From Candidatus Latescibacterota bacterium (GTDB taxonomy: Bacteria; Latescibacterota; UBA2968; GCA-2709665): a stretch of 64,000 nucleotides of DNA. A program made the position numbers and the translations under genes. The stretch lies in NCBI GenBank assembly GCA_965248435.1, contig OZ252100.1, positions 4,512,001-4,576,000 of the forward strand, in the 5' to 3' direction. Positions 119-25,189 of the stretch are shown one piece after another; the first letter of the stretch is position 1, and each line of letters starts with the position of its first letter. Below the pieces are notes generated by a model. It was given only the letters and a program-made list of their open reading frames with translations, was not told the DNA's origin and did not search any database.

Positions 119-1465
119 ATGAAACTCTCAAATGTAGACCATGCGAAGGCCTCAGCTGCCAGCGATCCAGGCTCGCAGATTAGGGGGCACGCCGCTCGTT
201 GGGTCCGTCAGTTCAAAGTCGGGGTGGTTATGATGTTGATTCTCGGTCTGGGATGGTCAGGGACGCAAGCCTGGGCCCAAACCCATAATTATAAATCGGA
301 TAAAGGCATCAAGATTTCAGAATTCGACGGAATGAAACTTTACATGGATTTAAAGACCGTCGGAAGGTTCCAGTCGTTGGACCACGAAGGGGTATTTGTT
401 GGTGGGAAAGAAACGCTGGGACTCCCGTCCGGATTTCAGACGGCCTGGGGAAATCTGGGGTTTCTGGCGGATTATGACGGTAAGGTCGAGGTCTTCTTCG
501 AACTCTACCTGAGCAGCCGGCCACATCCCGAAAAGGTTTATGGACACGAGGGCTATCTGCTGATCCGTGGTATACCGGAGAACCTCACCACCGGACCTGT
601 TGCGTCCCTGTTCAATGCGGTTGATTTCAAGGCGGGTCACTTCGAGATCGATTATGGAGATCACCGCTACCGGCGATCGGACAATGCGCGGGTGCAGAAA
701 AACCCATTGATCGGAAACTACATCATAGATCCGAAGACGGTAGAAATCGGGGTAGAAGTGGCCACGGAACCCAACCGTTTCAATCTTCTGATGGGTGTTG
801 GGAGTGGAGGTACCACAGAGAAATTCAAGAAGGGAACAGGCCTAAGTTTTCACGGCAAGCTCTGGGGTGATATTACTAAGTCCCTTAGGGCTTCAGGGTC
901 CTTTTACCGCGTGGATCACTCCGGAAACAAGGTCCAATTTACTGGGAGCTGGAGCAATCTCTTTTCCGGACACCGGAGTGGAGGGCCCTATAGCGGTGTT
1001 CTCGCTGGTGGAAACGCTCCTGGGCAGGTGATGCCCGGTGCTGGACAGAAGGTCACCGCAACCCAGTTTGATGTGACGTGGGGTGTGGGTTCGTTGGAGC
1101 TCTACAGCCATTACGGGTGGATGCGAGACGCTGACATCAACGGCTCGGATTCCGGGTCACCCGAGGAAAGCTGGGCATACTACGCGGCAGAATCCACTTA
1201 CCGTATTACGTCGAACCTCCATGCCGCCATCCGTTATAGCGGGGCCGACGCGAACAAACTCAACGGGATTTCCTCCAAAGGCCGCATTGAGCGGATTCAG
1301 ATTGGCGGCGGATTCTGGCTGACGGAAAACATGCTTGCCAAAGTGGAATATGTGCATCAGAGATGCAACAATTTCACGGACTCAGACGGCAAGGTCGGCG
1401 GCGTAGATATCTGGATGGATCCTGTTTTTAGCGGCGCGATCTCGGAGGTATCCTTCGCCTTCTAG
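119..1465 (+). CDS. Outer-membrane beta-barrel (porin-like) protein
   Basis: ORF 5..1465; likely ATG at 119 after AAGGAGGT. Hydrophobic signal-like stretch ending AWAQ, Gly/aromatic-rich amphipathic strands and a C-terminal Phe (SEVSFAF), the typical BamA signal. Confidence 0.7.
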   Translation: MKLSNVDHAKASAASDPGSQIRGHAARWVRQFKVGVVMMLILGLGWSGTQAWAQTHNYKSDKGIKISEFDGMKLYMDLKTVGRFQSLDHEGVFVGGKETLGLPSGFQTAWGNLGFLADYDGKVEVFFELYLSSRPHPEKVYGHEGYLLIRGIPENLTTGPVASLFNAVDFKAGHFEIDYGDHRYRRSDNARVQKNPLIGNYIIDPKTVEIGVEVATEPNRFNLLMGVGSGGTTEKFKKGTGLSFHGKLWGDITKSLRASGSFYRVDHSGNKVQFTGSWSNLFSGHRSGGPYSGVLAGGNAPGQVMPGAGQKVTATQFDVTWGVGSLELYSHYGWMRDADINGSDSGSPEESWAYYAAESTYRITSNLHAAIRYSGADANKLNGISSKGRIERIQIGGGFWLTENMLAKVEYVHQRCNNFTDSDGKVGGVDIWMDPVFSGAISEVSFAF

Positions 1466-1576
1466 ATCTCCTTGGTCTGCGGAGTCTGTGCAGAGTTGCT
1501 GGATGCCGCAGACCACATTCGGATAGGTCTTTTCAAACCGCCTTGACGATGATGAGAAGGGCGTCATCAAAAGGAG

Positions 1577-2275
1577 ATGATCGTGATGAAAAGACACAAT
1601 GTCGAGATGGTCGGCGTATTCATTCTGCTTCTTACCCATTCCTTACAGGCACAAACCTGGATCAGGTTTGAAGGGGTACCGGAAGAAAGCAGGGTCACGA
1701 TTGAGGGGACGTCTACTCTACACGACTGGACCGTCGAAAGCGAGAGCATCAAGGGGTTCTTGGAAATCCAGAAGGATGCTGATGACGACGCACTGTGGAA
1801 AGGGGAATCTGGACCAATGCGTGTGAAGATGCGCGCTAATGTTCACGTAGAGATCGTGGTCCGTTCCCTGAAAAGCGGCAAAGGGGACATGGACAAGAAG
1901 ATGTACAAAGCCTTGAAAGATAGCGAACATCCCAAAATCGAATACCGTCTAACCGAGGCGATATGCAAGGGGAGCAAGAAGATACGAGATGCCCGATTGT
2001 CATCAGTTGAGTTTGACACCAGGGGTGAATTGACAGTGGCGGGAGTAACTCTGCCGATCGAGATGGCCGTGATAGTAGACCGTATAGGCAAAGATCAATT
2101 GATAACCAAGGGGGAGACTTTTCTGAAGATGAAGGACTTCAAGATTAAACCACCCAAGGCCATGCTGGGCATGATCCGAACAGGTAATGACATCAAAATA
2201 TCCTTTGAATGGATGACGAAGTTGCCCGTGGAAACCACACAAACGGTAGGAATATCTCAGTCGGGAGACGCATAA
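1577..2275 (+). CDS. YceI-family periplasmic lipid/polyisoprenoid-binding protein
   Basis: Signal peptide (LQAQ); motifs 'IEGTSTLHDW', 'GELTVAGVT', 'LKMKDFKIKPP' typical of YceI. Confidence 0.85.
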   Translation: MIVMKRHNVEMVGVFILLLTHSLQAQTWIRFEGVPEESRVTIEGTSTLHDWTVESESIKGFLEIQKDADDDALWKGESGPMRVKMRANVHVEIVVRSLKSGKGDMDKKMYKALKDSEHPKIEYRLTEAICKGSKKIRDARLSSVEFDTRGELTVAGVTLPIEMAVIVDRIGKDQLITKGETFLKMKDFKIKPPKAMLGMIRTGNDIKISFEWMTKLPVETTQTVGISQSGDA

Positions 2276-2276
2276 A

Positions 2277-2966
2277 GTGAGAAATCCCAAACGCGTTCTG
2301 GAAGGGTTCATCATCCTGCTGGCATCTTTCCCTCTGCTGGCAATGGCATCTGAGCAAAACCTATTTGTGATTGGGTCCGATAGTGAGATGCATCTGCAAG
2401 GGCGCGCGACGCTTCGCAAATGGCGATTCGAAAGTCACGAGGTGACGGGATTTGTAAAACTCGAAGCGACTCCTGAGGATCTCAAGCTGATGATTCAAAG
2501 TGTTGAAACGGCTCTCCGAAGCGGGGTGGAAGTAATCTTGCAAGACTTGGGCCTACAGATGTGCAACTCTCCTCGGGCCTTAGTGACCGTTCCAGTGGGG
2601 TCTCTTGCGAACCGAAGTTCTGCAATGACACGAGATATGTACAAAGCCCTGAAGAAGGAGCAATTTCCAGTTATAAAGTACACATTTTCCAGATTGATAG
2701 ACGTCAGGGTGATACCGGGTGCCGATACGTCCATCACTCGTCTTAGTCTGACTACGGAGGGTGTTCTGGAGATCGCCGGGGTCCGAAAGTTCATAGAGAT
2801 GGATGTTCTGGTCGAACACGATAAGAACCGATTCAAAGTATTTGGTGAGAAACGTGTGAAGATGACTGATTTTGGAATTGATCCGCCATCACAATTCTTC
2901 GGTCTGATCCGTGTGCGCGACGAGGTGGATGTGATCTTTGACCTGGTCGTGGGGACGGATTCTTAA
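2277..2966 (+). CDS. YceI-family protein (paralog of upstream gene)
   Basis: GTG start 1 nt after the upstream stop; signal peptide; 'GVLEIAGV', 'VKMTDFGIDPP', 'MYKALK' shared with the upstream paralog. Confidence 0.8.
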   Translation: MRNPKRVLEGFIILLASFPLLAMASEQNLFVIGSDSEMHLQGRATLRKWRFESHEVTGFVKLEATPEDLKLMIQSVETALRSGVEVILQDLGLQMCNSPRALVTVPVGSLANRSSAMTRDMYKALKKEQFPVIKYTFSRLIDVRVIPGADTSITRLSLTTEGVLEIAGVRKFIEMDVLVEHDKNRFKVFGEKRVKMTDFGIDPPSQFFGLIRVRDEVDVIFDLVVGTDS

Positions 2967-3005
2967 TGAAGTTGCATGATGTTCCAGTGGAGGAGGGAGT
3001 CTCCA

Positions 3006-4634
3006 ATGAGATGTGCAGTGCGTACCAGACCCGCAGGAGGAAAGTTACTTCTTTATAGCGGCATCTTACTTGGTCTGTCCCTGCTTTGTGTACAGACCTC
3101 CACCGGGGAGGGACGTTCTCTACAGCCTTCAAAGGATCTGAAAGCCTCTACTCGAGCCGTAGAATTGGGCAAGGCCACTTACCAGAGACAATGCGCTGCC
3201 TGTCACGGGCTGGAGGGGCGGGGTGACGGCGAAGCGGCCTTCCTGCTCTATCCCAAGCCCCGGGACTTCGTCGCGGCTCGCTACCGTCTCGTCTCGACGT
3301 GGGAGCGTGTGCCGACGGATGAGGACCTCTTCACCACCATCTCCCGCGGGATGCCAGGGTCGGCAATGCCGTCCTGGGCCCACCTGCCCGAGGAGACCCG
3401 ATGGGGGCTGGTTCACTATGTGAAATCTCTTGCCGAGAAGTCCTGGGCAGTGAAGCCGGCGACCGAACCAAAAGAGGAAGGTGCGTCGGGGACCGGTGTC
3501 ATCGCTGTTCCGCCCGAGACTGCTTACACGGCGGAGACGAAGAAGCAGGCCGCCTACTTTTTCAAGGAGGCCTGTGCGGGGTGCCACGGGCTGGAAGGTC
3601 GGGGCGACGGTGTGCAGCGCCAGGTGGACAGTGAAGGGTATGAAACGCGGCCGAGGGATCTGACGCGCGGGATCTACAAGGGTATCCCGGACCCGGAGGC
3701 GGTTTACCGCAGGATTGTCGCGGGGCTGCCCGGTACGCCGATGCCGATGAGCGACTGGGCCTACGGGAAAGATGCCTGGGACCTCGTCCACTACGTAATG
3801 AATATGTCCAGTGATCGGGAGCGCTCACGCAACGAAATGTTCAAGTTTGAAATCCACGCCGCGAGGGTGGCCAAACTCCCGGACCATCCCGATTCGTGGA
3901 TCTGGAATCGCGCCACGCCGGTCAACCTCCATCTGATGCCGCTCTGGTGGCGGGACGACCGGACCGAGGAGGTGACGGTGCGCGCACTGCACGACGGCAG
4001 GGAACTGGCCCTGCTCCTGGTCTGGCGGGATGAGACGCACGACCATACGACCATCCGCCCGCAGGACTTCAGAGACGCCGCTGCCGTGCAGTTCTCCCTG
4101 GATTCGGATCCACCCTTTTTCGCGATGGGGGAGCGGGGGAAGTTCGTGAACATCTGGATGTGGAAGTCTGAGCGGCAGGCGGACCTGCAGCCGGCGTATC
4201 AGGACCTGGAGAAGGTCTATCCGAATATCGGGATCGATTCCTACCCCAACTTCCAGAGGTCGCCCCTGGAACAGCCGATGCGACACGCGCTGACGCTGGA
4301 ATCGGATTCGACCTACGTGACGGGATGGGGGGCGGGAAACATCGTTTCGGACCCGACGTGGAAGCGAGCCGCGGAGGACCTCCGGGCCCAGGGCTTCGGC
4401 ACCCTGAAGGCCCGACCTCGGTTCGACCAGGCCGTGGAGGCCGATGGGGTCTACCGCGCGAACGCCTACAGGGTGGTTTTCCGCCGTGCGTTCAAACCGA
4501 AGGGGAAGGGGGCGGCGGCGCTGAAGAAGGGGACGACAGTGCCGGTGGCCTTTGCGGTTTGGGACGGGAGCGCGGGGGACCGGGACGGGAAGAAGTCGGT
4601 GACGATCTGGCAGGATTTGAAGATTTCGCCCTGA
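3006..4634 (+). CDS. Diheme cytochrome c fused to an ethylbenzene-dehydrogenase-gamma-like heme-b domain (candidate NXR gamma subunit)
   Basis: ORF 2976..4634; ATG 3006 follows GGAGGGAG. Sec signal; two CxxCH motifs (CAACH, CAGCH) each followed by PRD and a GxPG(S/T)xMP Met-ligand motif. C-terminal 'DAAAVQF..FFAMG..VNIWMWK..AFAVWDGS..RDGKK' EB_dh signature. Confidence 0.8.
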   Translation: MRCAVRTRPAGGKLLLYSGILLGLSLLCVQTSTGEGRSLQPSKDLKASTRAVELGKATYQRQCAACHGLEGRGDGEAAFLLYPKPRDFVAARYRLVSTWERVPTDEDLFTTISRGMPGSAMPSWAHLPEETRWGLVHYVKSLAEKSWAVKPATEPKEEGASGTGVIAVPPETAYTAETKKQAAYFFKEACAGCHGLEGRGDGVQRQVDSEGYETRPRDLTRGIYKGIPDPEAVYRRIVAGLPGTPMPMSDWAYGKDAWDLVHYVMNMSSDRERSRNEMFKFEIHAARVAKLPDHPDSWIWNRATPVNLHLMPLWWRDDRTEEVTVRALHDGRELALLLVWRDETHDHTTIRPQDFRDAAAVQFSLDSDPPFFAMGERGKFVNIWMWKSERQADLQPAYQDLEKVYPNIGIDSYPNFQRSPLEQPMRHALTLESDSTYVTGWGAGNIVSDPTWKRAAEDLRAQGFGTLKARPRFDQAVEADGVYRANAYRVVFRRAFKPKGKGAAALKKGTTVPVAFAVWDGSAGDRDGKKSVTIWQDLKISP

Positions 4635-4646
4635 GGAGACAGTGCC

Positions 4647-7600
4647 ATGGCTGATGATGCGAAGCTGGAATCGGGCGGCGTTCCAAGGCGTGAGTTCCTG
4701 CGCTGGCTGGGTCTCGGCACCGGTTCGGCCGTGATGGGCGTGGGCGTGCCGTTCAGGCTGCTGGCCGCCGCCCGTCCCGACGAAAATCCACTCGCCGGTT
4801 CCATCGACCGGGGCTGGGAAGGGATCTACCGCGATCAATACCGCTACGACCGACACTTCGACTGGGTCTGTTCGCCCAACGACACCCACGCCTGCAGGGC
4901 CCGGGCCTACGTGCGGAACGGCATCGTGACCCGACTGGGGTCCACCTACGACTATCAGGACTATGCTGATCTCTACGGCAACAAGGCCACGTCGAACTGG
5001 AACCCCAGGCAGTGCGCAAAAGGCTACACCTTTCATCGTGTGCTCTACGGGCCCTACCGGCTGCGGCACCCGATCGTGCGCAGGGGCTGGAAGGCTTGGG
5101 CCGATGCCGGGTTTCCTGATCTGACGCCTGAGCTCCGGTCGAAGTACAAGTTCGACAGCCGGGGAGAGGACGAGTTTGTTCAGATCTCCTGGGATGACGT
5201 ATCCCACGACATCGCAAAGGCGCTGGTATCAATCTCTACGCGATACAGCGGGGAGGAGGGCAAACGGCGTCTGCTGGAACAGGGCTACCAGCCCGAGATG
5301 GTGGACGCCATGCACGGGGCGGGCACACGGAGCATCAAGATGCGGGGGGGGATGGGGCTTCTGGGGGTCATCGGGAAGTACGGGATGTATCGGCTGAACA
5401 ACTCGCTGTCTCTGCTCGACTCCAGGATCCGGGGCGTGTCGCCGGACAAGGCCCTCGGGGGTCGCAACTGGTCCAACTACACGTGGCACGGAGACCAGGC
5501 CCCGGGACACCCCTGGGTGCACGGGTTGCAGACGTCTGACTGCGACTTCAACGATCTTCGCTTCTCGAAGCTGATCATCATGGATGGAAAGAACCTGGTG
5601 GAGAACAAGCTGCCTGATTCCCACTGGTTCATCGAGTGCATGGAGCGGGGGGCGAAGATCGTCGTGATTGCCCCGGAGTACGGGCCGCCTTCCACCAAGG
5701 CCGACTACTGGATCCCGATTCGTCCGGCCACGGACACGGCGCTCTGGCTGGGCATTACGAAGCTGATGATCGACCGGAAGTGGTATGACGAAGCGTTCGT
5801 GAAAGGGTTCACCGACTTTCCCCTGCTTGTGCGAACGGATACACTCAAACGCCTGAGGGCCCACGAGGTCTTCCCCGATTACAAATCGACCCTTTCGCCC
5901 GACGGGCCTTCCGTGAAGATCCAGGGCCTCAAGCCGGAACAGCACGAAAAGCTGGGGGATTATGTGATCTGGGACGAAGGCCAGGACGGTCCACGGGCCA
6001 TCACGCGAGACGAAGTCGGAAAGCGCATGGCTGAGAACGGACATCGTCCGGCGCTTTCAGGAAAGTTCAAGGTCCGGCTGGTAAACGGCGAGGAGGTCGA
6101 GGTCGGGACGCTGTGGACGCTATATCAGACGCACTTGAAAGACTACGATCTGGATACCGTGGTCGACATCACCCACACCCCGAAAGAGCTGGTGGTACAG
6201 CTTGCGAAGGACATCGCAACGATGAAACCGGTGGCCATCCACCAGGGAGAGGGGATCAATCACTGGTTCCACGCCACGGAGATGAACCGATCGGCCTACC
6301 TGCCGTTGATGCTGACCGGGAACATCGGGAAGCCGGGCGCGGGAGGCCACACTTGGGCAGGCAATTACAAGGCCGCGCTCTTCCAGGGGTCGCCCTGGAC
6401 GGGGCCCGGATTCAAGGGGTGGATCGGCGAGGATCCGTTCGAGCCGAACCTGAATCCGGATGCCCCCGGGAAAGAGGTTCCGGTGCGCCTGACCTGCAAG
6501 GATGAGGAACCGGCCTACTGGAATCACGGGGATCAGGCCCTGATCGTGGACACGCCAAAGTTCGGGCGGAAGAACTTCACCGGCAACACCCACATGCCCA
6601 CGCCGACGAAGGCCATCATCTTTAACAATGTGAACCTGATCAACAATGCCAAGTGGGCCTACGGGATGATCAAGAACGTAAACCCGAACATCGAGATGAT
6701 CGTCTCGATGGACATCCAGATGACGGCCTCGATCGAATACGCCGATATCGCCCTGCCGGCCAACTCGTGGCTCGAGTTCGAGGGACTGGAAGTCACAGCC
6801 TCCTGCTCCAACCCCTTCCTCCAGATCTGGAAGGGCGGCATCCCCCCGGTCTTCGACAGCAAGGACGACCTGAGGATCCTTGCGAACATTGCCAAGGCCC
6901 TGGGTTCAGTGACCGGCGACCGGCGCTTCATCGACTATTTCAAGTTCGAGCATCAGGGAAAGCGTGACATCTATCTGCAGCGCCTCCTCGACACCTGCAC
7001 GACCACGCGGGGATACAAACTCAGCGACATCATGACGGGCAAATTCGGGCCGCCGGGCGGCTGCTTGATGAACTTCCGAACCTACCCGCGCATCCCGTTC
7101 TACGAGCAGGTACACGACGACGAGCCCTTTCACACCGACACGGGACGGATGCACGCCTACTCCGACGTGCCAGAGGCCATCGAGTACGGAGAGAACTTCA
7201 TCGTCCACCGGGAAGGCCCGGAGGCCACGCCCTACCTGCCGAACGTGATCGTGAGTTCCAACCCCTACATCCGGCCGGAGGATTACGGCATCCCGCAGGA
7301 CGCGGAGCACTGGGACGATCGCACGATCCGAAACGTGATGCTCCCCTGGTCCAAGGTGAAGAAGACGAAGAACTTCCTATGGGAGAAAGGGTTCCAGTTC
7401 TACTGCCTGACACCGAAGACGCGCCACCGGGTGCACAGCGGCTGGTCGAACGTGGACTGGCACATGCTCTACGATTCGAACTTCGGTGACCCCTATCGGC
7501 TGGACAAGCGGGCGCCCTCAGTGGGCGAACACCAGCTCCACATCAACCCTCAGGCGGCGCGGGATCTCGAGATCAACGACGGAGATTACGTCTACCTGGA

Positions 7601-8117
7601 CGCAAACCCGGCGGACCGGCCCTACCTCGGGGCGAAGCCTGACGATCCCTTCTACCGTGTGGCGCGGTGCATGCTGCGGGTCAAGTACAACCATGCCTAC
7701 CCCTACAACATCGTGATGATGAAACACGCGCCCTATATCGCTACGGAGAAGAGCGTAAAGGCACACGAAACCCGGCCGGACGGCCGGGCGCTTTCTGCGA
7801 ATACGGGTTACCAGGCCAACCTTCGCTACGGGTCCCAGCAATCGGTCACGCGTAACTGGCATATGCCGATGCATCAGACCGACAGCCTTTTCCACAAGGC
7901 GAAGGTGTATATGAGTTTCATCTTCGGGGGCGAGGCGGATAACCACGCCATCAACACGGTGCCGAAGGAGACGCTTGTCCGCGTCACGAAAGCGGAGGAT
8001 GGAGGAATGGGGGGTGCGGGTATCTGGGCGCCGGCGACCACCGGACGTACCCCTGACAATGAGAATGAATTCACCAAGCGCTACCTGGTCGGCGAGCTGG
8101 TGCAGGTCAGGTCGTAG
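4647..8117 (+). CDS. nxrA: Periplasmic nitrite oxidoreductase/nitrate reductase alpha subunit (Mo-bisPGD, type II DMSO reductase family)
   Basis: 1156 aa; Tat motif RREFL; FS0 motif CSPNDTHAC...WNPRQCAKG with Asp in place of a Cys; 'NYTWHGDQ' Mo-ligand Asp region; 'TPKTRHRVHS' molydopterin-binding domain. These match Nitrospira/anammox-type NxrA; direction of catalysis cannot be read from sequence. Confidence 0.85.
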   Translation: MADDAKLESGGVPRREFLRWLGLGTGSAVMGVGVPFRLLAAARPDENPLAGSIDRGWEGIYRDQYRYDRHFDWVCSPNDTHACRARAYVRNGIVTRLGSTYDYQDYADLYGNKATSNWNPRQCAKGYTFHRVLYGPYRLRHPIVRRGWKAWADAGFPDLTPELRSKYKFDSRGEDEFVQISWDDVSHDIAKALVSISTRYSGEEGKRRLLEQGYQPEMVDAMHGAGTRSIKMRGGMGLLGVIGKYGMYRLNNSLSLLDSRIRGVSPDKALGGRNWSNYTWHGDQAPGHPWVHGLQTSDCDFNDLRFSKLIIMDGKNLVENKLPDSHWFIECMERGAKIVVIAPEYGPPSTKADYWIPIRPATDTALWLGITKLMIDRKWYDEAFVKGFTDFPLLVRTDTLKRLRAHEVFPDYKSTLSPDGPSVKIQGLKPEQHEKLGDYVIWDEGQDGPRAITRDEVGKRMAENGHRPALSGKFKVRLVNGEEVEVGTLWTLYQTHLKDYDLDTVVDITHTPKELVVQLAKDIATMKPVAIHQGEGINHWFHATEMNRSAYLPLMLTGNIGKPGAGGHTWAGNYKAALFQGSPWTGPGFKGWIGEDPFEPNLNPDAPGKEVPVRLTCKDEEPAYWNHGDQALIVDTPKFGRKNFTGNTHMPTPTKAIIFNNVNLINNAKWAYGMIKNVNPNIEMIVSMDIQMTASIEYADIALPANSWLEFEGLEVTASCSNPFLQIWKGGIPPVFDSKDDLRILANIAKALGSVTGDRRFIDYFKFEHQGKRDIYLQRLLDTCTTTRGYKLSDIMTGKFGPPGGCLMNFRTYPRIPFYEQVHDDEPFHTDTGRMHAYSDVPEAIEYGENFIVHREGPEATPYLPNVIVSSNPYIRPEDYGIPQDAEHWDDRTIRNVMLPWSKVKKTKNFLWEKGFQFYCLTPKTRHRVHSGWSNVDWHMLYDSNFGDPYRLDKRAPSVGEHQLHINPQAARDLEINDGDYVYLDANPADRPYLGAKPDDPFYRVARCMLRVKYNHAYPYNIVMMKHAPYIATEKSVKAHETRPDGRALSANTGYQANLRYGSQQSVTRNWHMPMHQTDSLFHKAKVYMSFIFGGEADNHAINTVPKETLVRVTKAEDGGMGGAGIWAPATTGRTPDNENEFTKRYLVGELVQVRS

Positions 8118-8142
8118 AAGACTTCGTCTGAAGGAGCCGAAA

Positions 8143-8469
8143 ATGCCTTACGATGAACCCGATGTCACCGACCCGATGATGGGTGTGGGCGTTGTGTTGC
8201 CGGGCGGCGAGGAAGCCACGCGGGACATGGCTTACGTCTTTGCTGAGGAGTTCGCCAGGCTGGGCCATTCCGAAGAAAAGATCCTGCGTCTGTTCCAGAC
8301 ACCCTTTTACCGGGCCGCACACGGCGCCTATTCCGCACTGGGCGAGGCTGTCATCCTACGGATCGTCCGGGAATGTGTCGGCGTCTGGGGACGCGTGCGG
8401 TTCGTGGATCTGGATGCGGAAAGAGAAGCAGAGGGGCTCATTCAAGTGGAACCGTGCAGGACCGAATAG
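8143..8469 (+). CDS. Small hypothetical protein between nxrA and nxrB
   Basis: ATG 8143 after AAGGAG, within ORF 7975..8469; 108 aa (MPYDEPDVTDPMMGVGV...FAEEFARLG); fills the alpha-beta gap. Confidence 0.7.
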   Translation: MPYDEPDVTDPMMGVGVVLPGGEEATRDMAYVFAEEFARLGHSEEKILRLFQTPFYRAAHGAYSALGEAVILRIVRECVGVWGRVRFVDLDAEREAEGLIQVEPCRTE

Positions 8470-8508
8470 GGATCTCGAATCGAAACTGGCCACGAGGAGG
8501 GGAGTGCG

Positions 8509-9777
8509 ATGGCACAGGTCTACAACTGGAACCTCGGACGCAAGATGGCCTATCCGTACGAGGCCGCATATCCGAAGGAGCAGTTCGCCTTCGTGTTCAA
8601 CATCAACCGGTGTATCGCCTGCCAGACCTGCACCATGGCGTGCAAGTCGACCTGGACTTTCAACAAGGGGCAGGAACACATGTGGTGGGCGAACGTTGAG
8701 ACGAAGCCCTACGGGGGCTACCCTCAGTTCTGGGACATGAAGACCCTGCAACTGCTGGAGGAAGGTAACCCGGACGGGCAGGTCTGGGACGGGTTGACTT
8801 CAGACGACCCGAAGCGGCCCTACGGTCAATTCGAGGGCCAGACGGTCTTCGAGGCGGGAAAAAAGACGCTGAAGCCCGACAGCTCGCGCGTGCTCGGCTA
8901 TCTGCCCACGGACGAGGAGTGGAACTCTCCGAATATCTATGAGGACAACCCGGTGGGCAAAAAGGGGGTGCGGGGCGAGTTCTATCCGGACGGGGTGGAG
9001 CTGCCGGTGCACAAGACCTGGTTTTTCTACCTGGCGCGCATCTGCAATCACTGCAGCTATCCGGCCTGCTTGGCGGCCTGCCCCCGAAAGGCGATCTACA
9101 AGCGCCCCGAGGACGGGATCGTCCTGGTGGACCAGAAGGAGTGCCGGGGCTACCGGAAGTGTGTCGAGGCCTGTCCCTATAAGAAGGTGATGTATCGGGG
9201 CAATACCCGGATTTCCGAAAAGTGCATCGCCTGCTATCCCCGAGTCGAGGGTAAGGACCCGGAGACCGGAGGGGAGCCGATGGAGACGCGGTGCATGGCG
9301 GCCTGTATCGGTCAGATGCGGATGCAGGGGCTCGTGAAGATGGATCCCGAAGGGACCTGGACCCGAGATCGGCAGCATCCGCTCTATTATATGGTTCACG
9401 TCGCCAAGGTGGCCCTGCCGCTCTACCCTCAGTTCGGAACGGAGCCCAACGGCTACTACATCCCACCCCGATGGGTACGTCGCGATTACTTGCGGCAGAT
9501 GTTCGGGCCGGGCGTGGACCGGGCGATCGAGGCCTATTCCCACCCAGACCGGGAGCTCCTGGCCGTGTTGCAGCTCTTCCGGCGCTCCAACCGGATCATC
9601 TACCGGTATGAGATCGAGGAGGGCCCGTTGATCTACGAAGCGGAGCTGCGAGGACGGCCGATCACTATTTACAACGACACTGTGATCGCGTTCGGTAAGG
9701 GGGGGAAAGAGATCTTCCGGACGACGGTGGAGGAGCCCATCTACGAGCGGCCCTCCGAGCACGCGAATTCGATATAA
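8509..9777 (+). CDS. nxrB: Nitrite oxidoreductase/nitrate reductase beta (Fe-S) subunit
   Basis: N-terminus MAQVYNWNLGRKMAYPY; four Fe-S Cys groups (CIACQTCTMAC; CNHCSYPACLAACP; CRGYRKCVEACP; CIAC..CMAAC); 'ALPLYPQFGTEPN'; no signal peptide. Confidence 0.9.
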   Translation: MAQVYNWNLGRKMAYPYEAAYPKEQFAFVFNINRCIACQTCTMACKSTWTFNKGQEHMWWANVETKPYGGYPQFWDMKTLQLLEEGNPDGQVWDGLTSDDPKRPYGQFEGQTVFEAGKKTLKPDSSRVLGYLPTDEEWNSPNIYEDNPVGKKGVRGEFYPDGVELPVHKTWFFYLARICNHCSYPACLAACPRKAIYKRPEDGIVLVDQKECRGYRKCVEACPYKKVMYRGNTRISEKCIACYPRVEGKDPETGGEPMETRCMAACIGQMRMQGLVKMDPEGTWTRDRQHPLYYMVHVAKVALPLYPQFGTEPNGYYIPPRWVRRDYLRQMFGPGVDRAIEAYSHPDRELLAVLQLFRRSNRIIYRYEIEEGPLIYEAELRGRPITIYNDTVIAFGKGGKEIFRTTVEEPIYERPSEHANSI

Positions 9778-9789
9778 GCGGAGAGAGAG

Positions 9790-10557
9790 ATGACCGAACT
9801 GAGAATCGAAGCGGAGGAACTCGCCCTGTGCCGGGCGACCCTGTACGAGGCGCTGGCGCTGGGGTTTCGCCCCCCTACGGAGGAAACGCTGGCTCGTCTG
9901 GTGGCCGTGGAGGGGGTGAGCGCACTCGCCGATGCAGCCGCGCCGCTGGACCCCGATCTGGCTGAAACGGTCAGGAGCCTGGCCAAGGCGAATCGGACGG
10001 ACGGCACGTCGGTCCTGTCCGGGCTCTACCGAACCCTCTTCGGGCATACTGCAAGGGGCGCCGTGCCGCCTTACGAGACGGAGTACGGCGTGGATGGACT
10101 GTTCCAGCAGCCCCAGGAGATGAGCGACATCGGCGGGTTTTTCGGTGCCTTCGGTCTTGCGGTGGATCCATCGAGTCACGAACGGATCGACCACATCAGC
10201 TGCGAGTGTGAATTCCTCCGTTTTCTTTGCGAGAAGGAGGTCTACGCCGCGGAGGCGGGGGATGAGGACATGCTGGAGGAAACCCGCAAGGCGGAGCGGC
10301 TCTTCCTGAAGGATCACCTGGGTCGGCTCGCGCCCGCCTTCGGACGGCGGCTGGTGCTCGAAGACCGAGGCGGCTTCTACGGTGCGCTGGGCGAATTGTG
10401 TGCCGGCTTTATCGAGGCCGAATGCCGGCGCGCCGGTGTTTCGGCCGGACCGGAACAGCTTCAGCTTCGACCGGCCCTGCCCGACGACGTGCCCATGGCG
10501 TGCGATTCGGGTGAAGACCTCCTGCAGATCGACGGGGAGTCGGAGGAGGTTGGATGA
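9790..10557 (+). CDS. TorD/DmsD-family molybdoenzyme maturation chaperone
   Basis: 'PPYETEY' and 'ERIDHISCECEF' (E-x-x-DH motif), 'FLKDHLG'; directly after the beta subunit. Confidence 0.85.
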   Translation: MTELRIEAEELALCRATLYEALALGFRPPTEETLARLVAVEGVSALADAAAPLDPDLAETVRSLAKANRTDGTSVLSGLYRTLFGHTARGAVPPYETEYGVDGLFQQPQEMSDIGGFFGAFGLAVDPSSHERIDHISCECEFLRFLCEKEVYAAEAGDEDMLEETRKAERLFLKDHLGRLAPAFGRRLVLEDRGGFYGALGELCAGFIEAECRRAGVSAGPEQLQLRPALPDDVPMACDSGEDLLQIDGESEEVG

Positions 10558-11516
10558 GAAGAGATCCCGAGGGATTTCGGCTGAACTTCGACCACCGCCT
10601 CGTGGAAGAATCGGTGTTGCTCGCCATCCCGGGCCGGGCCGATGAGGGCCGATTCCGAAGCGTGCGAGATCGGATTTACGACGAGCCTGACCTCGACGCG
10701 CGGGATGTGGCCTTCCAGAAGCTCCACGCCGAGTGGTTTGTGTTTCTCGGCCTGGGGGATCCCCTGGAGCAGGCTCTGGATGAGCGCTCCCTGTTGAAAG
10801 CCGCGACCCGTCAATGCGTCGTGGCCCCTGCACGGTCGAAGAAGGAGGAGGGAGCAGATCTTTTCGTGTCTCCACCCTTAGAGGGTAGGGATGAGGTGGA
10901 CAGGCGGTCGATCGGCTGCCGACTGAAGACCGAGTCGTTCCTGGAGCCTGACGCCCTGCTTGCAGTGCTTCGTCACGAGTTTCTACACATCTTCGACATG
11001 CTCGATCCGGCGTTCGACTACGAGCCGGAACTGCCCCAGTCGGAGGGAGGGGCCATGGCCAAGCGCCTCCTTCAGGATCGCTATCGGGTGCTTTGGGGTG
11101 TGACGATCGACGGACGTCTCGTGAGGGAAGGTCGGGCATTGGCCGGAGTGCGTGGACGCAGAGAACACGAATTTTTCCGGACCTTTCATTTTCTAGGCGC
11201 GAACACCCAAGACGCCTTCAGCAGGTTCTTCGACCACCCCTTCCGCACCCACGGCGAACTGGTCGCCTTTGCGCAAGCTCCCCATTTGGCCTTTGGCGAC
11301 TCATCCCGTCCTGATATGCGCTGTCCTTTATGCGGTTTCCCCACGCACGCCTTTGAGCCGAACCCACAACGGATCCCTGCCGAGGTGCTTACCCGGATCG
11401 CGAGTGATTTTCCGACCTGGCGCCCTGCGCAGGGACTCTGCCCGCAGTGTGCCGATCTCTATCGGGCCTCCCCGCTCTCCAGCGCGGCAGAGGCCGTCCT
11501 TCCGAAGATTTCATGA
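10554..11516 (+). CDS. Hypothetical protein with HExxH zinc-binding motif and C-terminal CxxC...CxxC
   Basis: ATGA overlap with the chaperone stop; 'LRHEFLHIFDMLDP'; CPLC ... CPQC. Confidence 0.7.
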   Translation: MRRDPEGFRLNFDHRLVEESVLLAIPGRADEGRFRSVRDRIYDEPDLDARDVAFQKLHAEWFVFLGLGDPLEQALDERSLLKAATRQCVVAPARSKKEEGADLFVSPPLEGRDEVDRRSIGCRLKTESFLEPDALLAVLRHEFLHIFDMLDPAFDYEPELPQSEGGAMAKRLLQDRYRVLWGVTIDGRLVREGRALAGVRGRREHEFFRTFHFLGANTQDAFSRFFDHPFRTHGELVAFAQAPHLAFGDSSRPDMRCPLCGFPTHAFEPNPQRIPAEVLTRIASDFPTWRPAQGLCPQCADLYRASPLSSAAEAVLPKIS

Positions 11517-11940
11517 GTTCTATGACCTCCCGAGAACGAATTCAGAGGGTGTTGGCAGCGAGGTGCCCGACCGTGTGCCGTTTCACGACGCCTACTGGGC
11601 GACGACGATCGAGCGGTGGCGTCGCGAAGGCATGCCGCCAGACAGATCTCCTGAAGAATACTTCGGGAGTGAAATCGTGCAGATCGCGGGCGACTATTCG
11701 CTGCAAGTTCCATTTCAGATGATCGAGGAGACGGATCGATATCGCGTCGGGAATATCGATGTTCGAAACCTGGCTGGAAGCCGTGAGGCGATCGAATCGG
11801 AGATCCGGTCGAAGGTGACCGCGGGGGGAGCTGGGGGCGGATACATCTATCATTCAGATCACTCCGTCCCCAAAGATGTGTCGTTGGAGAACTATCGATT
11901 CGCGCTGAAGATGCTCGAGAAGTACGGGCGTTACGATTGA
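11513..11940 (+). pseudogene. Frameshifted, internally deleted URO-D/MtaA-family (methyltransferase-like) gene remnant
   Basis: N-terminus MTSRERIQRVL (frame of ORF 11447) shifts into EVPDRVPF (frame of ORF 11269), then joins directly to C-terminal 'GNID...GGGYIYHSDHSVP'. About 140 codons against roughly 350 for the family. Confidence 0.7.
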
Positions 11941-11957
11941 GGCGTGAGGAGGACCGT

Positions 11958-12599
11958 ATGGACGACGTCGAGCGCTGTACTTGCGCAGACGAGGGCCCGC
12001 CCGTTATCGCGGTCACAGGCTACCGGGACAGCGGAAAGACGACCGCTATCGAGGCGATCGTAAAGGCGTGTTCTCTCCGGGGCACCCGTGTAGGGGTCTT
12101 CAAGCATTGCTGCCACGGCTACGATCTGGACCAACCCGGGAAGGACTCCTGGCGTATCCATCAGGCAGGCGCGGCCGGGACCGTCGTGATGGGCCCCAAG
12201 GGATTCGCGTTCCTCGGGGGATCCTGCCCTGACCAGGATCCACGGCGACTTGCGTCCTGGCTGTTCCCGAACGTGGACTTGATCCTTGCCGAGGGGTTTC
12301 ACTGGATCGGCCTTCCCCGGATCGAGATTGGAGATCGCGATGGAAGGACCCGCCCGGGGCATCCGGAAGGGGAGGTGCTGGGCCGTCTGCCTTTTAAGTT
12401 CGGTTCGAGGGAGATCCGGGCGGTCTGCGATCTGCTCGAGGCGAGATACGTGGAGGGGCGACGTGAACGAGAGGTCGCCCGAAGGGCGATTCTATCCTCA
12501 GCTCAAACTTCGTCGGATATCCGTCGAGGGGACATCTTCGGCAGGAGGACGACTCCCCACGCGATTACTCCGATCAGCCAGAACGCTGCTCCGATGTGA
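11958..12599 (+). CDS. mobB: Molybdopterin-guanine dinucleotide biosynthesis protein B
   Basis: ATG after GAGGAGG; P-loop GYRDSGKTT, 'KH..HGYDLDQPGKDSWR..AGA', 'DLILAEGF'. Confidence 0.85.
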   Translation: MDDVERCTCADEGPPVIAVTGYRDSGKTTAIEAIVKACSLRGTRVGVFKHCCHGYDLDQPGKDSWRIHQAGAAGTVVMGPKGFAFLGGSCPDQDPRRLASWLFPNVDLILAEGFHWIGLPRIEIGDRDGRTRPGHPEGEVLGRLPFKFGSREIRAVCDLLEARYVEGRREREVARRAILSSAQTSSDIRRGDIFGRRTTPHAITPISQNAAPM

Positions 12600-13666: not shown

Positions 13667-13955
13667 GTGCGCTCCGAATGGCGAGGGATTTGAAGGTGCT
13701 GATGTGTCAAGATAACCGTTCCGGCGGTCCGCGGACAAGCGTTTGGGCCGACCAGCGGGTGGACAGACGACTGGGATTTGCCACAGGCAAATCAACCCGT
13801 TCCCTGGAAAGGGAGATTAGACCTGGGACACGCTCGCCCCACCGGTGCGACATCCACCTTACGATTCCCGCTTTCCAGTGAAGATTTCGCTTCTGTGCCT
13901 TGCCATAACTTATTTAATAACAAACTGATAATTAGTACGACGTCGGCGACGTCCG

Positions 13956-21943: not shown

Positions 21944-22206
21944 TCCTCTTCCAGTAGGGGAAGTGTGCACCTGGGTGGGGAGGGGGCGTTTCAGTCCCTG
22001 TCCCGCATCAGGAGTTTGCCAGGATAGGTGTGACACGCGTGTCGCACGTGATTGTCGAACCCTGCATCTATCCCCTACTCCCAACTCTCTTTTTCCAAAG
22101 TTCTCTGTTGCACAGTAGGATAACATCCAGGCCCAGGGTCTAATGGCTCTGGTACGCTATTCGTTTTGACTGGATGTTTGGACCTCAAAAATGGATGGAG
22201 ATGTCG

Positions 22207-23487: not shown

Positions 23488-23509
23488 TCGACAGAAAGAG
23501 GCCGGTTTC

Positions 23510-24904: not shown

Positions 24905-24948
24905 CCAGCGATGCCTGCCGGGCATCAGCATTAGCGAATCTCGCTAGA

Positions 24949-25053
24949 ACCGGGTACCGGGATAGGTAGATAGGTTACAGGGATCTTACGGTTTGGGGGC
25001 GACGCTGGGTCGCCCCGGGAAATCAAAACACGGGTACCGGGTACCGTAAAACC
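24949..25053. repeat. Composite interspersed repeat, copy 1 (ACCGGGT 7-mers flanking a GGGGCGAC/GTCGCCCC hairpin)
   Basis: Closely similar to 60886-60991 and partly to 46481-46575. Confidence 0.85.
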
Positions 25054-25092
25054 AGCTACCGGGACTCAGTACCAGAGATGGTCATGAGCCCG

Positions 25093-25116: not shown

Positions 25117-25189
25117 TGTTAGGCCTGATTACGTGAATTGAGCGACCGCTGGGGTCGAACGTGTCAAGAGAAGGCCAGGGGATTTGATT

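What the first reader, a model, noticed from the sequence alone, without database searches (positions are those of the whole stretch)
119..12599. Complete periplasmic NXR-type molybdoenzyme cluster with an unusual accessory gene set
Seen: a co-directional run porin-yceI-yceI-gamma-alpha-ORF-beta-chaperone-HExxH protein-relic-mobB, with a convergent nnrS. The alpha subunit has a Tat motif, CSPNDTHAC and NYTWHGDQ. Established: these motifs characterise the periplasmic NXR clade of Nitrospira, Nitrospina and anammox bacteria rather than cytoplasmic NarG. Inference: the neighbouring genes (aromatic ring cleavage, PDH, URO-D and corrinoid relics) point to an organotrophic host that may not be a known nitrifier. 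The cluster could therefore mark an unrecognised nitrite oxidiser or a nitrate reducer using an NXR-like enzyme. Catalytic direction cannot be read from sequence.
Basis: partly seen in the sequence, partly recalled or inferred. Interest (0 to 1): 0.85.

Follow-up and report, generated by a model that had tools for sequence, protein, structure and literature searches.

The report
Periplasmic nitrite/nitrate oxidoreductase operon, non-nitrifier host
This is an intact operon for the same kind of periplasmic nitrite/nitrate-converting molybdenum enzyme that nitrifiers and anammox bacteria use, sitting in an uncultured bacterium from another lineage; hundreds of sequenced environmental genomes carry near-identical operons, so it is a new member of a known but functionally unresolved group.

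Summary
Window 2976-11516 (+) encodes gamma, alpha, a small protein, beta, a NarJ/TorD-type chaperone and an HExxH protein. Two YceI genes and a probable outer-membrane barrel precede them; a URO-D relic, MobB and convergent NnrS follow. Alpha carries the Tat motif, CSPNDTHAC and NYTWHGDQ. It matches solved Kuenenia NxrA over its full length (1789 bits, against 192 for PcrA, 165 for EbdA, 115 for NarG). The refuting outcome (SerA/EbdA-like) did not occur.

The host is not an obvious nitrifier: the nearest named ArgS is Latescibacterota (71%), and Brocadia is 53-55%.

The cluster is not rare, and its core is not unusual. 554 species genomes encode a relative. The best 80 (74-84% identity, 16 phylum labels) share the same order gamma-alpha-X-beta-chaperone-HExxH. 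Only the porin and two YceI genes (0 of 80 loci), the relic and NnrS (1 of 80) are host-specific. Papers already describe such putative NXRs in non-nitrifier genomes.

Catalytic direction remains open; I lean towards a reversible, cytochrome-c-linked enzyme used mainly for nitrate respiration.

Two conserved core proteins have no family and no solved fold: the 108-aa protein and the HExxH/zinc-ribbon protein.

Verdict: new member of a known kind; modest interest.

The parts
119..1465 (+). Probable outer-membrane beta-barrel ('porin'). The ORF is open from base 5, and the likely start is at 119.
   Evidence: No Pfam family. Weak OmpF C-terminal hit, E 0.006. Signal-like hydrophobic segment and terminal Phe. 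No homologue in 0 of 80 related loci.
1577..2275 (+). YceI-like periplasmic protein 1, with a signal-like N-terminus.
   Evidence: PF04264, 47.7 bits against a cut-off of 23.7. Sequence. 0 of 80 loci.
2277..2966 (+). YceI-like periplasmic protein 2. It lies 1 nt after YceI-1 and 9 nt before gamma, so it is probably co-transcribed.
   Evidence: PF04264, 36.3 bits. Sequence. 0 of 80 loci. 0 YceI among 115 ORFs upstream of gamma in 58 loci.
2976..4634 (+). Gamma subunit: N-terminal hydrophobic signal or anchor, two c-type haem domains (CxxCH at 73 and 200), and an EB_dh haem-b domain.
   Evidence: Pfam EB_dh 89 bits and Cytochrom_C 71 bits. PDB 6h5l_B dihaem cytochrome 135 bits (residues 61-279) and 7b04_C NxrC 89 bits (residues 333-548). 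Two CxxCH in 63 of 63 gamma proteins, the window's included.
4647..8117 (+). Alpha (catalytic Mo-bisMGD) subunit with Tat signal, 1156 aa.
   Evidence: Matches 7b04_B at 1789.5 bits over residues 13-1154. Carries the CSPNDTHAC and WHGDQ motifs.
8143..8469 (+). Conserved 108-aa cytoplasmic protein of no known family, sitting between alpha and beta.
   Evidence: A homologue lies in the same gap in 70 of 75 loci. No Pfam or NCBIfam family. Model pLDDT 80 with no PDB fold match at E<=0.001.
8509..9777 (+). Beta (Fe-S) subunit, 422 aa, 15 Cys.
   Evidence: Fer4_11 84.9 bits. 7b04_A NxrB 604 bits. Cys positions.
9790..10557 (+). NarJ/TorD-type assembly chaperone.
   Evidence: PF02613, 67.9 bits. TIGR03482, 84.3 bits, below its cut-off of 152.3. 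Present in 64 of 80 loci.
10554..11516 (+). HExxH protein with a C-terminal four-Cys (zinc-ribbon-like) motif. No signal peptide and no known family.
   Evidence: E142, C257, C260, C296 and C299 are invariant in 39 sequences, and H145 is conserved in at least 90%. Present in 58 of 80 loci. Model pLDDT 94.6 with no PDB match at E<=0.001. All 120 listed of 337 profile hits lack a Pfam family, and the source names shown read 'hypothetical protein'.
11520..11940 (+). Degraded URO-D-family remnant (listed ORF 11269-11940).
   Evidence: PF01208 C-terminus, E 8e-4, below cut-off. The three-frame read shows the N- and C-terminal pieces in different frames. 0 of 80 loci.
11937..12599 (+). MobB (molybdopterin-guanine dinucleotide synthesis adaptor).
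   Evidence: TIGR00176, 94.7 bits against 76.2. A MobB homologue lies downstream in 8 of 80 loci. A FmdE-zinc finger-MobB fusion cluster occurs in 7 loci.
12503..13795 (-). NnrS (haem-copper membrane protein of N-oxide stress regulons; that role is recalled). It is convergent and overlaps the 3' end of MobB by 97 nt.
   Evidence: PF05940, 110 bits. 1 of 80 loci.
14212..14793 (+). Membrane-anchored Cys-rich protein. Its N-terminal half resembles a small gene placed inside or near nxr clusters of Methylomirabilota-type loci.
   Evidence: tblastn 28-35% identity over 41-47% of the query in 7 of 80 loci. Sequences. No Pfam family.

Best explanation
Window 2976-11516 is an intact operon for a periplasmic nitrite:nitrate oxidoreductase of the Nitrospira/anammox type.

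Assembly (inferred from family knowledge). Alpha receives Mo-bisMGD and its FS0 cluster in the cytoplasm with the help of the NarJ/TorD-type chaperone, and MobB supports cofactor supply. The two conserved unknown cytoplasmic proteins (the 108-aa protein and the HExxH/four-Cys protein) probably take part in this step. Alpha is then exported by Tat, with beta riding along. Gamma is exported separately.

Electron path. Gamma provides one haem b and two haems c, so electrons run from Mo through five Fe-S clusters, haem b and two haems c to the periplasmic cytochrome c pool, not directly to quinone.

Direction. The enzyme class is reversible. In this apparently organotrophic host I judge the main use to be respiratory nitrate reduction to nitrite, fed from cytochrome c via a bc1-type or alternative complex III. 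Nitrite oxidation to a terminal oxidase remains possible when oxygen and nitrite are present.

Host-specific additions. The two YceI proteins and the outer-membrane barrel upstream probably serve substrate access or membrane association.

What is shown and what is inferred. Shown: gene content, motifs, homology and conservation. Inferred: assembly roles, electron partners and direction.
For: Family assignment:
- Alpha 1789.5 bits to Kuenenia NxrA over residues 13-1154.
- Beta 604 bits to NxrB.
- Gamma C-terminus 89 bits to NxrC, and its N-terminus 135 bits to a Kuenenia-type dihaem cytochrome c.

Catalytic features:
- Tat motif, the FS0 motif with Asn and Asp, and the Mo-ligand Asp are present in the window. 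They correspond to Asn70, Asp71 and Asp275 of the solved enzyme (PMC8387239, passages read).
- The FS0 and WHGDQ motifs are kept in 77 of 77 alphas. The Tat motif is kept in 75 of 77; the two without it lack the N-terminal residues where the motif lies.

Intactness: lengths equal the medians of relatives. Alpha is 1156 against 1155, beta 422 against 421, gamma 552 against 547.5.

Operon: gaps of 1-40 nt between genes. The order is colinear in 56 of 56 loci that hold all five searched genes.

Cytochrome c wiring: two CxxCH in 63 of 63 gammas.

Reversibility: Kuenenia NXR reduces nitrate at 1.5 umol/min/mg and oxidises nitrite at 61 nmol/min/mg in vitro (PMC8387239).

Lean towards nitrate reduction:
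- Neighbours tied to N-oxide sensing or stress: NnrS here; an Rrf2 regulator cluster in 16 of 80 loci, 13 of them directly upstream of gamma; hemerythrin in 7 loci.
- The hosts of the clade carry labels of mostly non-nitrifier phyla.
- Thermogutta terrifontis grows by nitrate respiration. Its genome paper annotates one Nar with a bc1 complex beside it (PMC5673643), and two later papers place that enzyme in the wider NXR clade (PMC10732223, PMC12758564).
Against: Against the lean on direction:
- Every biochemically or physiologically characterised member of the close clade comes from organisms that oxidise nitrite in vivo (nitrite oxidisers, comammox, anammox; PMC8387239, PMC3578206).
- Cytochrome oxidase genes lie next to the cluster in 3 of 80 loci.
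- nxrAB was among the most transcribed gene sets in floodplain soil (PMC8141241, passages read).
- A high-potential haem b / haem c chain suits electron delivery to an oxidase just as well.
- The NsrR-like reading of the Rrf2 regulators is by family only.

Gaps in the evidence:
- Only 64 kb of a 5.66-Mb contig was available, so carbon fixation, oxidases, complex III and nir/nor genes were not examined.
- The roles of the small protein and the HExxH protein are guesses from position and conservation.
- No tree with named nitrifier NxrA could be built.
Confidence: 0.45

Rival explanations
1. The host is a lithotrophic or mixotrophic nitrite oxidiser from a phylum with no known nitrifiers. The enzyme runs mainly from nitrite to nitrate and passes electrons through the dihaem-c gamma subunit to a terminal oxidase.
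For: - Very high similarity to the solved nitrite-oxidising enzyme, with all of its active-site features.
- Characterised members of the close clade oxidise nitrite in vivo (PMC8387239, PMC3578206).
- Nitrospina has comparable 'alternative NxrC' proteins with 1-3 haem c sites plus a haem-b domain, proposed to pass electrons to the respiratory chain (PMC3578206, passages read).
- COX1/COX2 genes lie beside the cluster in 3 of 80 loci.
- MAG studies propose this reading for Planctomycetota (PMC10732223).
Against: - The window shows organotroph-type metabolism and holds no carbon-fixation or oxidase gene.
- The same operon occurs under 16 phylum labels, including lineages labelled Syntrophobacteraceae, Omnitrophota and Hydrogenedentota. 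This makes a universal nitrifying lifestyle unlikely.
- The enzyme is reversible in vitro (PMC8387239).
Confidence: 0.3
2. The enzyme is used in both directions depending on redox state. It detoxifies nitrite or harvests supplementary electrons under oxic conditions, and it reduces nitrate under anoxia. Neither direction is the main one.
For: Bidirectional kinetics of the homologue (PMC8387239). Wiring to the cytochrome c pool, which can donate or accept. Both oxidase genes and N-oxide-stress genes occur among neighbours in relatives.
Against: No direct evidence. Known organisms use their enzyme predominantly one way.
Confidence: 0.17
3. The enzyme acts on another substrate, such as chlorate, perchlorate, selenate or an organic compound, as other type II DMSO-reductase-family enzymes do.
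For: NCBIfam places alpha, beta, gamma and the chaperone nearest the 'DMSO reductase family type II' models, all below their cut-offs. Substrate was not tested.
Against: Scores to PcrA (191.7 bits) and EbdA (165.5 bits) are about a tenth of the NxrA score. The substrate-side Asn and the Mo-ligand Asp of NXR are conserved in 77 of 77 alphas.
Confidence: 0.05
4. The cluster is a recently transferred, unexpressed or decaying passenger.
For: A URO-D relic lies inside the run. The alpha tree does not place the window with the two Latescibacterota-labelled loci.
Against: All six core genes are full length with medians matching relatives and all motifs are intact. GC of 0.60-0.63 in the windows covering 4,001-12,000 is only slightly above the window's range elsewhere. 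No integrase or transposase family matched any window ORF submitted; short ORFs and several gaps were not scanned.
Confidence: 0.03

Closest known systems
Kuenenia stuttgartiensis NXR-ABC (PDB 7B04; PMC8387239)
   Same: Alpha, beta and the haem-b part of gamma are clear homologues (1789.5, 604 and 89 bits). The Tat signal, the FS0 Cys/Asn/Asp motif and the Mo-ligand Asp are shared. Kuenenia also has unknown ORFs (kustd1701, kustd1702) between nxrA and nxrB (PMC6423088, table read).
   Different: Here gamma lies upstream of alpha and is fused to a dihaem cytochrome c. In the Kuenenia gene table NxrC (kustd1704) follows NxrB, and several separate cytochromes are listed (PMC6423088). None of the window ORFs examined here was identified as a homologue of the tubule-forming NXR-T; no direct search for one was made. 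Whether kustd1701/1702 are related to the 108-aa protein could not be tested.
Nitrospira / Nitrospina periplasmic NXR with 'alternative NxrC' (PMC3578206)
   Same: Periplasmic orientation and a TorD-like chaperone. Nitrospina has gamma-like proteins that combine 1-3 haem c sites with the haem-b domain. That paper reports a 'putative zinc finger' protein and proteins of unknown function conserved near nxr genes.
   Different: Those hosts are autotrophic nitrifiers with an nxrABC order or dispersed nxrC genes. The host here is from another lineage.
Putative NXR clusters of uncultured Methylomirabilota/Rokubacteria, Binatia, Acidobacteriota, Planctomycetota, KSB1 and others
   Same: 74-84% identical alpha and the same six-gene order. 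This is the group the window belongs to. The function is unknown and is debated in PMC10732223 and PMC8141241. PMC12823411 counted 665 periplasmic NxrA/NarG of the Nitrospira clade in 97,227 genomes.
   Different: The window's alpha is a lone branch (end branch 0.21, best identity 84%). Its operon is preceded by two YceI genes and an outer-membrane barrel, seen in 0 of 80 relatives. The Rrf2 regulator family that forms a cluster in 16 of the 80 loci has no member among the ORFs of the window's first 24 kb.
Type II DMSO-reductase-family enzymes (EbdABC, PcrAB, SerABC)
   Same: Tat-exported alpha, Fe-S beta, soluble EB_dh-type haem-b gamma, a dedicated chaperone and cytochrome c as redox partner.
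   Different: Only 165-192 bits to their alphas. The active-site motifs here are those of NXR.
Membrane-bound NarGHI
   Same: Distant homology of alpha and beta (115 and 170 bits) and a NarJ-family chaperone.
   Different: No NarI was found. Alpha has a Tat signal and faces the periplasm. FS0 has the Asp-type motif rather than the His-type motif (PMC8387239).

Membership tests
Periplasmic NXR, Nitrospira/Nitrospina/anammox type | Twin-arginine signal on alpha (periplasmic orientation) | tested here: met
   RREFL at residues 14-18. Present in 75 of 77 alphas of the clade; the two without it lack the N-terminal residues where the motif lies.
Periplasmic NXR, Nitrospira/Nitrospina/anammox type | FS0 motif with three Cys plus Asp and the substrate-side Asn (Asn70/Asp71 of the Kuenenia enzyme) | tested here: met
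   CSPNDTHAC at 75-83, aligned to the same motif of 7b04_B. Residue roles are taken from PMC8387239.
Periplasmic NXR, Nitrospira/Nitrospina/anammox type | Mo-coordinating Asp (Asp275 of the Kuenenia enzyme) | tested here: met
   WHGDQ at 280-284, aligned to the identical stretch of 7b04_B.
Periplasmic NXR, Nitrospira/Nitrospina/anammox type | Full-length similarity to a characterised NXR well above that to NarG, EbdA and PcrA | tested here: met
   1789.5 bits against 191.7, 165.5 and 114.7. Beta scores 604 against 191, 188 and 170.
Periplasmic NXR, Nitrospira/Nitrospina/anammox type | Branching with reference NxrA of nitrifiers and anammox bacteria in a tree | tested here: inconclusive
   No named nitrifier sequence could be brought in. 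The tree of 82 rows holds only MAG sequences and distant outgroups. As a proxy, Kuenenia NxrA scores 1752-1834 bits to three subclades and 1590 to the basal representative.
Periplasmic NXR, Nitrospira/Nitrospina/anammox type | Nitrite oxidation activity | not testable with these tools
   Needs enzyme or culture work.
Periplasmic NXR, Nitrospira/Nitrospina/anammox type | Gamma subunit with an EB_dh-type haem-b domain | tested here: met
   PF09459, 89 bits against a cut-off of 33.3. 7b04_C, 89 bits.
Membrane-bound nitrate reductase NarGHI | Cytoplasmic alpha without Tat export, a NarI dihaem-b membrane subunit, and TIGR01580 above its cut-off | tested here: not met
   A Tat motif is present. No NarI family matched any ORF of the run. 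TIGR01580 scores 148.3 bits against a cut-off of 1084.
DMSO reductase family type II (NCBIfam TIGR03479/03478/03477/03482) | Scores above the curated cut-offs | tested here: not met
   338.9 against 984.75; 251.8 against 480.7; 121.4 against 169.85; 84.3 against 152.3. These are the best-scoring models but all fall below cut-off: related architecture, separate branch.
YceI-like | PF04264 above the gathering score | tested here: met
   47.7 and 36.3 bits against 23.7.
MobB | TIGR00176 above its cut-off | tested here: met
   94.7 bits against 76.2.
Zincin-type metalloproteins (for the HExxH protein) | HExxH in a helix plus a recognisable zincin fold | tested here: inconclusive
   The motif sits in helix 132-150 of a confident model. 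The best PDB hits are HExxH-domain and putative metallopeptidase entries, but only at E 0.02-0.2 and TM <= 0.30.

The most novel reading that the evidence does not exclude
The host, a lineage near Latescibacterota with no cultured nitrifiers, actually lives partly by nitrite oxidation. In that case the large MAG clade sharing this six-gene operon would be a hidden guild of nitrite oxidisers across many phyla. The 108-aa protein and the HExxH/four-Cys protein would then be dedicated, undescribed maturation factors of periplasmic NXR.
Probability: 0.2. Interest if true: 0.8.

Novelty: new member of a known kind. Interest (0 to 1): 0.3.

Why it matters
Nitrite oxidation is credited to a handful of lineages, yet this operon type is spread over many phyla in soils, aquifers and sediments. 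Gene-based nitrogen budgets change depending on whether these enzymes make or consume nitrate.

This window adds one complete, intact, chromosome-embedded example from a long contig (5.66 Mb), which is a good template for expression or enrichment work.

It also highlights two strictly co-occurring proteins of unknown family that could be tested as NXR assembly factors.

By itself it does not open a new question. The question is already posed in the literature.

Tried and rejected
1. Wrong frame for the small ORF. My first scans used coordinate 8144 instead of 8143. The results 'homologue in 1 of 80 loci' and '45 loci' are artefacts of the overlapping frame. The correct frame gives 70 of 75 loci.

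2. Naming the host. The closest ArgS clusters carry no names (10 clusters looked up; none of the names shown gives an organism).

3. Getting named nitrifier NxrA for a tree.
- The 50%-identity library collapses the whole clade into one unnamed representative, P0285, at 63%.
- A cluster look-up named only outgroups: SAR202/Chloroflexota, Gaiellaceae, Halorussus, Ammonifex and others.
- The genome scan kept only the 80 closest loci, none from nitrifier phyla.
- The requested reference tree was therefore not built.

4. Plasmid search with alpha. The best hit is 36% (Natronococcus), and all 428 matching records are below 60%. No plasmid copy was found.

5. Fold searches. The HExxH protein and the small protein gave no PDB match at E<=0.001. 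The Atlas look-alikes shown (top three rows for each protein) are unnamed clusters.

6. Complex prediction of chaperone + HExxH protein + small protein. It returned 'no answer', which is neither support nor evidence against.

7. RNA and signal scans. No Rfam family at gathering score in the window and no tRNA. Promoter and terminator scans were at or below shuffle expectation.

8. A FmdE-MobB fusion like that of 7 relatives was looked for in the window. Only the MobB part matches.

9. My greedy ORF caller picked antisense shadow ORFs in this GC-rich DNA (for example window 8800-11139 on the minus strand). Clusters built from these were ignored.

They may already list this clade or its accessory genes.

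Full report
**What is in the sequence**

Between bases 119 and 12599 the plus strand carries a tight, co-directional run of genes.

- 5/119-1465: an ORF with no Pfam family. It has a faint OmpF-like C-terminal match (E 0.006), a signal-like segment and a terminal Phe. A 'porin' is plausible but weakly supported.
- 1577-2275 and 2277-2966: two YceI-domain proteins with signal-like N-termini.
- 2976-4634: a 552-aa gamma subunit.
- 4647-8117: a 1156-aa alpha subunit.
- 8143-8469: a 108-aa ORF.
- 8509-9777: a 422-aa Fe-S beta subunit.
- 9790-10557: a NarJ/TorD-family chaperone.
- 10554-11516: a 320-aa protein with HEFLH and four C-terminal Cys.
- About 11520-11940: a degraded URO-D-family remnant.
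- 11937-12599: MobB.
- 12503-13795, minus strand: NnrS, convergent.

Gaps between YceI-1, YceI-2, gamma, alpha, the small ORF, beta, the chaperone and the HExxH gene are -4 to 40 nt, so they probably form one operon.

**Which family**

Against all solved structures, alpha matches Kuenenia stuttgartiensis nitrite oxidoreductase subunit A over residues 13-1154 at 1789.5 bits. The next best are perchlorate reductase PcrA (191.7), ethylbenzene dehydrogenase alpha (165.5) and E. coli NarG (114.7).

Beta gives 604 bits to NxrB, against 191, 188 and 170 for EbdB, PcrB and NarH. The C-terminal 216 residues of gamma match NxrC at 89 bits. Gamma residues 61-279 match a 'conserved hypothetical cytochrome protein' (6h5l_B) at 135 bits; from recall this is a Kuenenia dihaem cytochrome c.

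The structure paper (PMC8387239, passages read) names Asp275 as the Mo ligand, Asn70 as the substrate-side residue, and an unusual FS0 cluster with three Cys and Asp71. The window has the identical stretches. Beta has 15 Cys, the number needed for three [4Fe-4S] clusters and one [3Fe-4S] cluster.

I could not build a tree with named nitrifier references (see the limits section). As a proxy, Kuenenia NxrA scores 1752-1834 bits to three subclades of the window's relatives and 1590 bits to the more basal representative P0285. This fits Kuenenia lying just outside the clade of the window and its relatives, not within any one part of it.

**How common it is**

The protein search found 2447 relatives. 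The best 120 are all 80-84% identical to the window's alpha. Where they are named, the names are Rokubacteria/Methylomirabilia, KSB1, Binatia, Acidobacteriota and Limnocylindrales.

In one genome per species (185,579 species), 554 of 556 pattern matches encode a relative. The 80 closest loci are 74-84% identical and carry 16 phylum labels plus 9 unassigned. No locus is 100% identical, so the window's own genome is not in that collection.

In the library clustered at 50% identity, the whole clade collapses into one representative at 63%. The next full-length relatives are at 44% (named SAR202/Chloroflexota) and 43% (Gaiellaceae).

A quick maximum-likelihood tree of 82 alphas puts the window on its own branch (length 0.21). 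It sits in a weakly resolved group (support 91) with two Acidobacteriota loci and the Methylomirabilota and Binatia/Syntrophobacteraceae clades. It does not sit with the two Latescibacterota-labelled loci. Phylum labels are clustered on the tree (24 changes, against 43.6 in shuffles) but are not clean.

**The accessory set**

tblastn of the window's proteins against the 80 loci, counting hits that cover at least half of the query (many loci are cut by contig ends), gives:

| Protein | Loci with a hit |
|---|---|
| Alpha | 80 of 80 |
| Gamma | 70 of 80 |
| Beta | 68 of 80 |
| Chaperone | 64 of 80 |
| HExxH protein | 58 of 80 |
| MobB | 8 of 80 |
| NnrS | 1 of 80 |
| Porin, both YceI, relic | 0 of 80 |

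All 56 loci that hold gamma, alpha, beta, chaperone and the HExxH gene have them in the same order and strand as the window.

My first scan for the small ORF used a coordinate one base off. It returned results for the wrong frame, and I withdraw them. In the correct frame the 108-aa protein has homologues in the alpha-beta gap of 70 of 75 loci that hold both flanking genes, with E-values down to 9e-41.

So the six-gene core gamma-alpha-X-beta-chaperone-HExxH is the rule in this clade, not an oddity. Every one of 63 gamma proteins has exactly two CxxCH motifs, so the dihaem-c/haem-b fusion is also standard here.

It has a published precedent. Lücker et al. (PMC3578206, passages read) describe 'alternative NxrC' proteins in Nitrospina with 1-3 haem c sites plus the haem-b domain. 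They also describe a 'putative zinc finger' protein and proteins of unknown function conserved near nxr genes of Kuenenia, Nitrospira and Nitrospina. Kuenenia also has two unknown ORFs, kustd1701 and kustd1702, between nxrA and nxrB (PMC6423088, table read). Whether these are homologues of the window's two unknown proteins could not be tested.

The parts specific to this host are the barrel protein and the YceI pair (no YceI among 115 ORFs lying upstream of gamma in 58 loci), the URO-D remnant, and NnrS.

Recurrent neighbours in relatives are:
- an Rrf2-family regulator, in 16 of 80 loci, 13 of them directly upstream of gamma;
- hemerythrin, 7 loci;
- a radical-SAM protein, 7 loci;
- a FmdE-zinc finger-MobB fusion, 7 loci;
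- MoaA and MoeA, in a few loci;
- COX1/COX2, 3 loci.

One more link: window 14212-14793 encodes a membrane-anchored Cys-rich protein. Its N-terminal half resembles a small gene that lies between beta and the chaperone in L004 and matches in six further Methylomirabilota/Acidiferrales-type loci.

**The two unknown core proteins**

The HExxH protein has no Pfam or NCBIfam family. In 39 sequences E142, C257, C260, C296 and C299 are invariant, and H145 is conserved in at least 90%.

Its AlphaFold model is confident (pLDDT 94.6, pTM 0.86) and mostly helical, with the motif in helix 132-150. No solved structure matches at E<=0.001. The top hits are an HExxH-domain oxygenase and a putative metallopeptidase at E 0.02-0.2 and TM <= 0.30.

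A profile search found 337 relatives at E<=1e-5 among 7999 scored. None of the 120 listed has a Pfam family, and the source names shown read 'hypothetical protein'.

The 108-aa protein has a conserved N-terminal MPYxDPDPxDP stretch followed by four helices (pLDDT 80). It also has no fold match and only unnamed Atlas look-alikes.

Neither protein has a signal peptide. Their fixed place beside the chaperone suggests roles in cytoplasmic maturation of the Tat substrate. That is an inference from position and conservation only.

**The host**

The rest of the window encodes housekeeping and organotroph-type functions:
- tryptophan and shikimate pathway genes, TyrS and ArgS;
- PDH E2/E3 and glutamate dehydrogenase;
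- a CusCBA-type efflux system;
- a P450, an extradiol dioxygenase and a FAH-family hydrolase.

ArgS is 82% identical to an unnamed protein from a 4.29-Mb contig. The nearest named hits are Latescibacterota (71%), Abditibacteriales (61%), Gemmatimonadota (58%), Zixibacteriota (55%) and Brocadia-type (53-55%). A cluster look-up added no names.

I read this as an uncultured lineage near Latescibacterota, not a known nitrifier or anammox lineage. It rests on one marker.

**How it probably works**

From the anatomy and family knowledge I infer the following sequence:
1. Cofactor insertion happens in the cytoplasm with the chaperone, MobB for MGD supply, and perhaps the two unknown proteins.
2. Alpha and beta are exported together by Tat.
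3. Gamma is exported separately and its haems are attached.
4. Electrons pass from Mo through FS0-FS4, haem b and two haems c to the periplasmic cytochrome c pool.

Direction cannot be read from sequence. The Kuenenia enzyme oxidises nitrite (61 nmol/min/mg with ferricyanide) and reduces nitrate (1.5 umol/min/mg with methyl viologen) (PMC8387239).

For this host I lean towards nitrate respiration (0.45). The reasons are the N-oxide-sensing or stress neighbours (NnrS, Rrf2, hemerythrin), the organotroph-type context, the spread of the operon under phylum labels that are mostly not nitrifiers, and Thermogutta terrifontis. That organism respires nitrate with an enzyme that later papers place in the wider NXR clade (PMC5673643, PMC10732223, PMC12758564).

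Against this lean:
- all characterised close relatives oxidise nitrite in vivo;
- oxidase genes sit beside the cluster in 3 loci;
- nxrAB was highly transcribed in floodplain soil (PMC8141241).

I give nitrite oxidation as the main role 0.30 and true two-way use 0.17.

**Comparison with what is known, and novelty**

The literature already holds this picture (passages read in each):
- putative NXRs in Planctomycetota and KSB1 MAGs, with the same open question of direction (PMC10732223);
- NXR-encoding genomes more common than ammonia oxidisers in floodplain soils (PMC8141241);

My six literature searches found no paper that characterises the 108-aa protein or the HExxH protein. Subscription journals and supplements were not searchable, so this is not proof of absence.

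I rate the finding a new member of a known kind. The operon is real, complete and correctly classified, but it is neither rare nor newly puzzling.

**Limits**

- Only 64 kb of the genome was available.
- Metagenome contigs, viral contigs and paper supplements were closed.
- No named nitrifier NxrA could be retrieved for a tree.
- The complex prediction gave no answer.

Noticed in passing
window 14212-14793 (+): A 193-aa protein with an N-terminal membrane helix and several Cys, and no Pfam family. Its N-terminal half resembles a 93-aa gene that lies between beta and the chaperone in L004 (8031-8312). It gives weak hits in 7 of 80 loci in all, mostly Methylomirabilota.
   Followed up: partly
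window 16384-17643 (+): An outer-membrane barrel of the Alginate_exp family (109.7 bits) lies a few kb past the cluster. The same family forms a three-locus ORF cluster (representative L053) and also lies upstream of gamma in L070.
   Followed up: partly
window 8183-8740 (+), overlapping 8143-8469: The alternative reading frame over the small gene also gives weak 'homologues' in other loci (E about 1e-8, growing to 45 loci on iteration). This is a by-product of DNA conservation. It shows how an overlapping frame can mimic a conserved family.
   Followed up: yes
window 12503-12599: The 3' ends of MobB (+) and NnrS (-) overlap by 97 nt as called from the stop codons. The MobB domain covers only residues 23-133 of 220.
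   Followed up: no
window 22174-28447 (+): A TolC-like outer-membrane protein, a CusB-like adaptor and a CusA/CzcA-family pump (1249 bits): a heavy-metal efflux system.
   Followed up: no
window 29900-34200: A stretch of lower GC (about 0.52) with few long ORFs. Only a bifunctional-nuclease/UVR-domain protein (32150-32812, minus strand) was recognised. RpoS/RpoD-like sigma factor genes lie at 34183-35049 (-) and at 15377-16267 (+).
   Followed up: partly
L021:4512-7334 (+): One Methylomirabilota locus has a second, 940-aa protein with cytochrome c and EB_dh domains upstream of the normal gamma gene.
   Followed up: no
L077:6131-6958 (-): An integrase-core (rve) gene lies about 1.4 kb upstream of the gamma gene in an Omnitrophota locus. 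This hints at mobility of the cluster in that lineage.
   Followed up: no
L001/L005 and L079/L080: Nearly identical alphas occur under different phylum labels: Syntrophobacteraceae with Binatia, and Phycisphaerae with Pseudomonadales (end branches 0.007-0.018). This points either to recent transfer or to mislabelled or contaminated bins.
   Followed up: no
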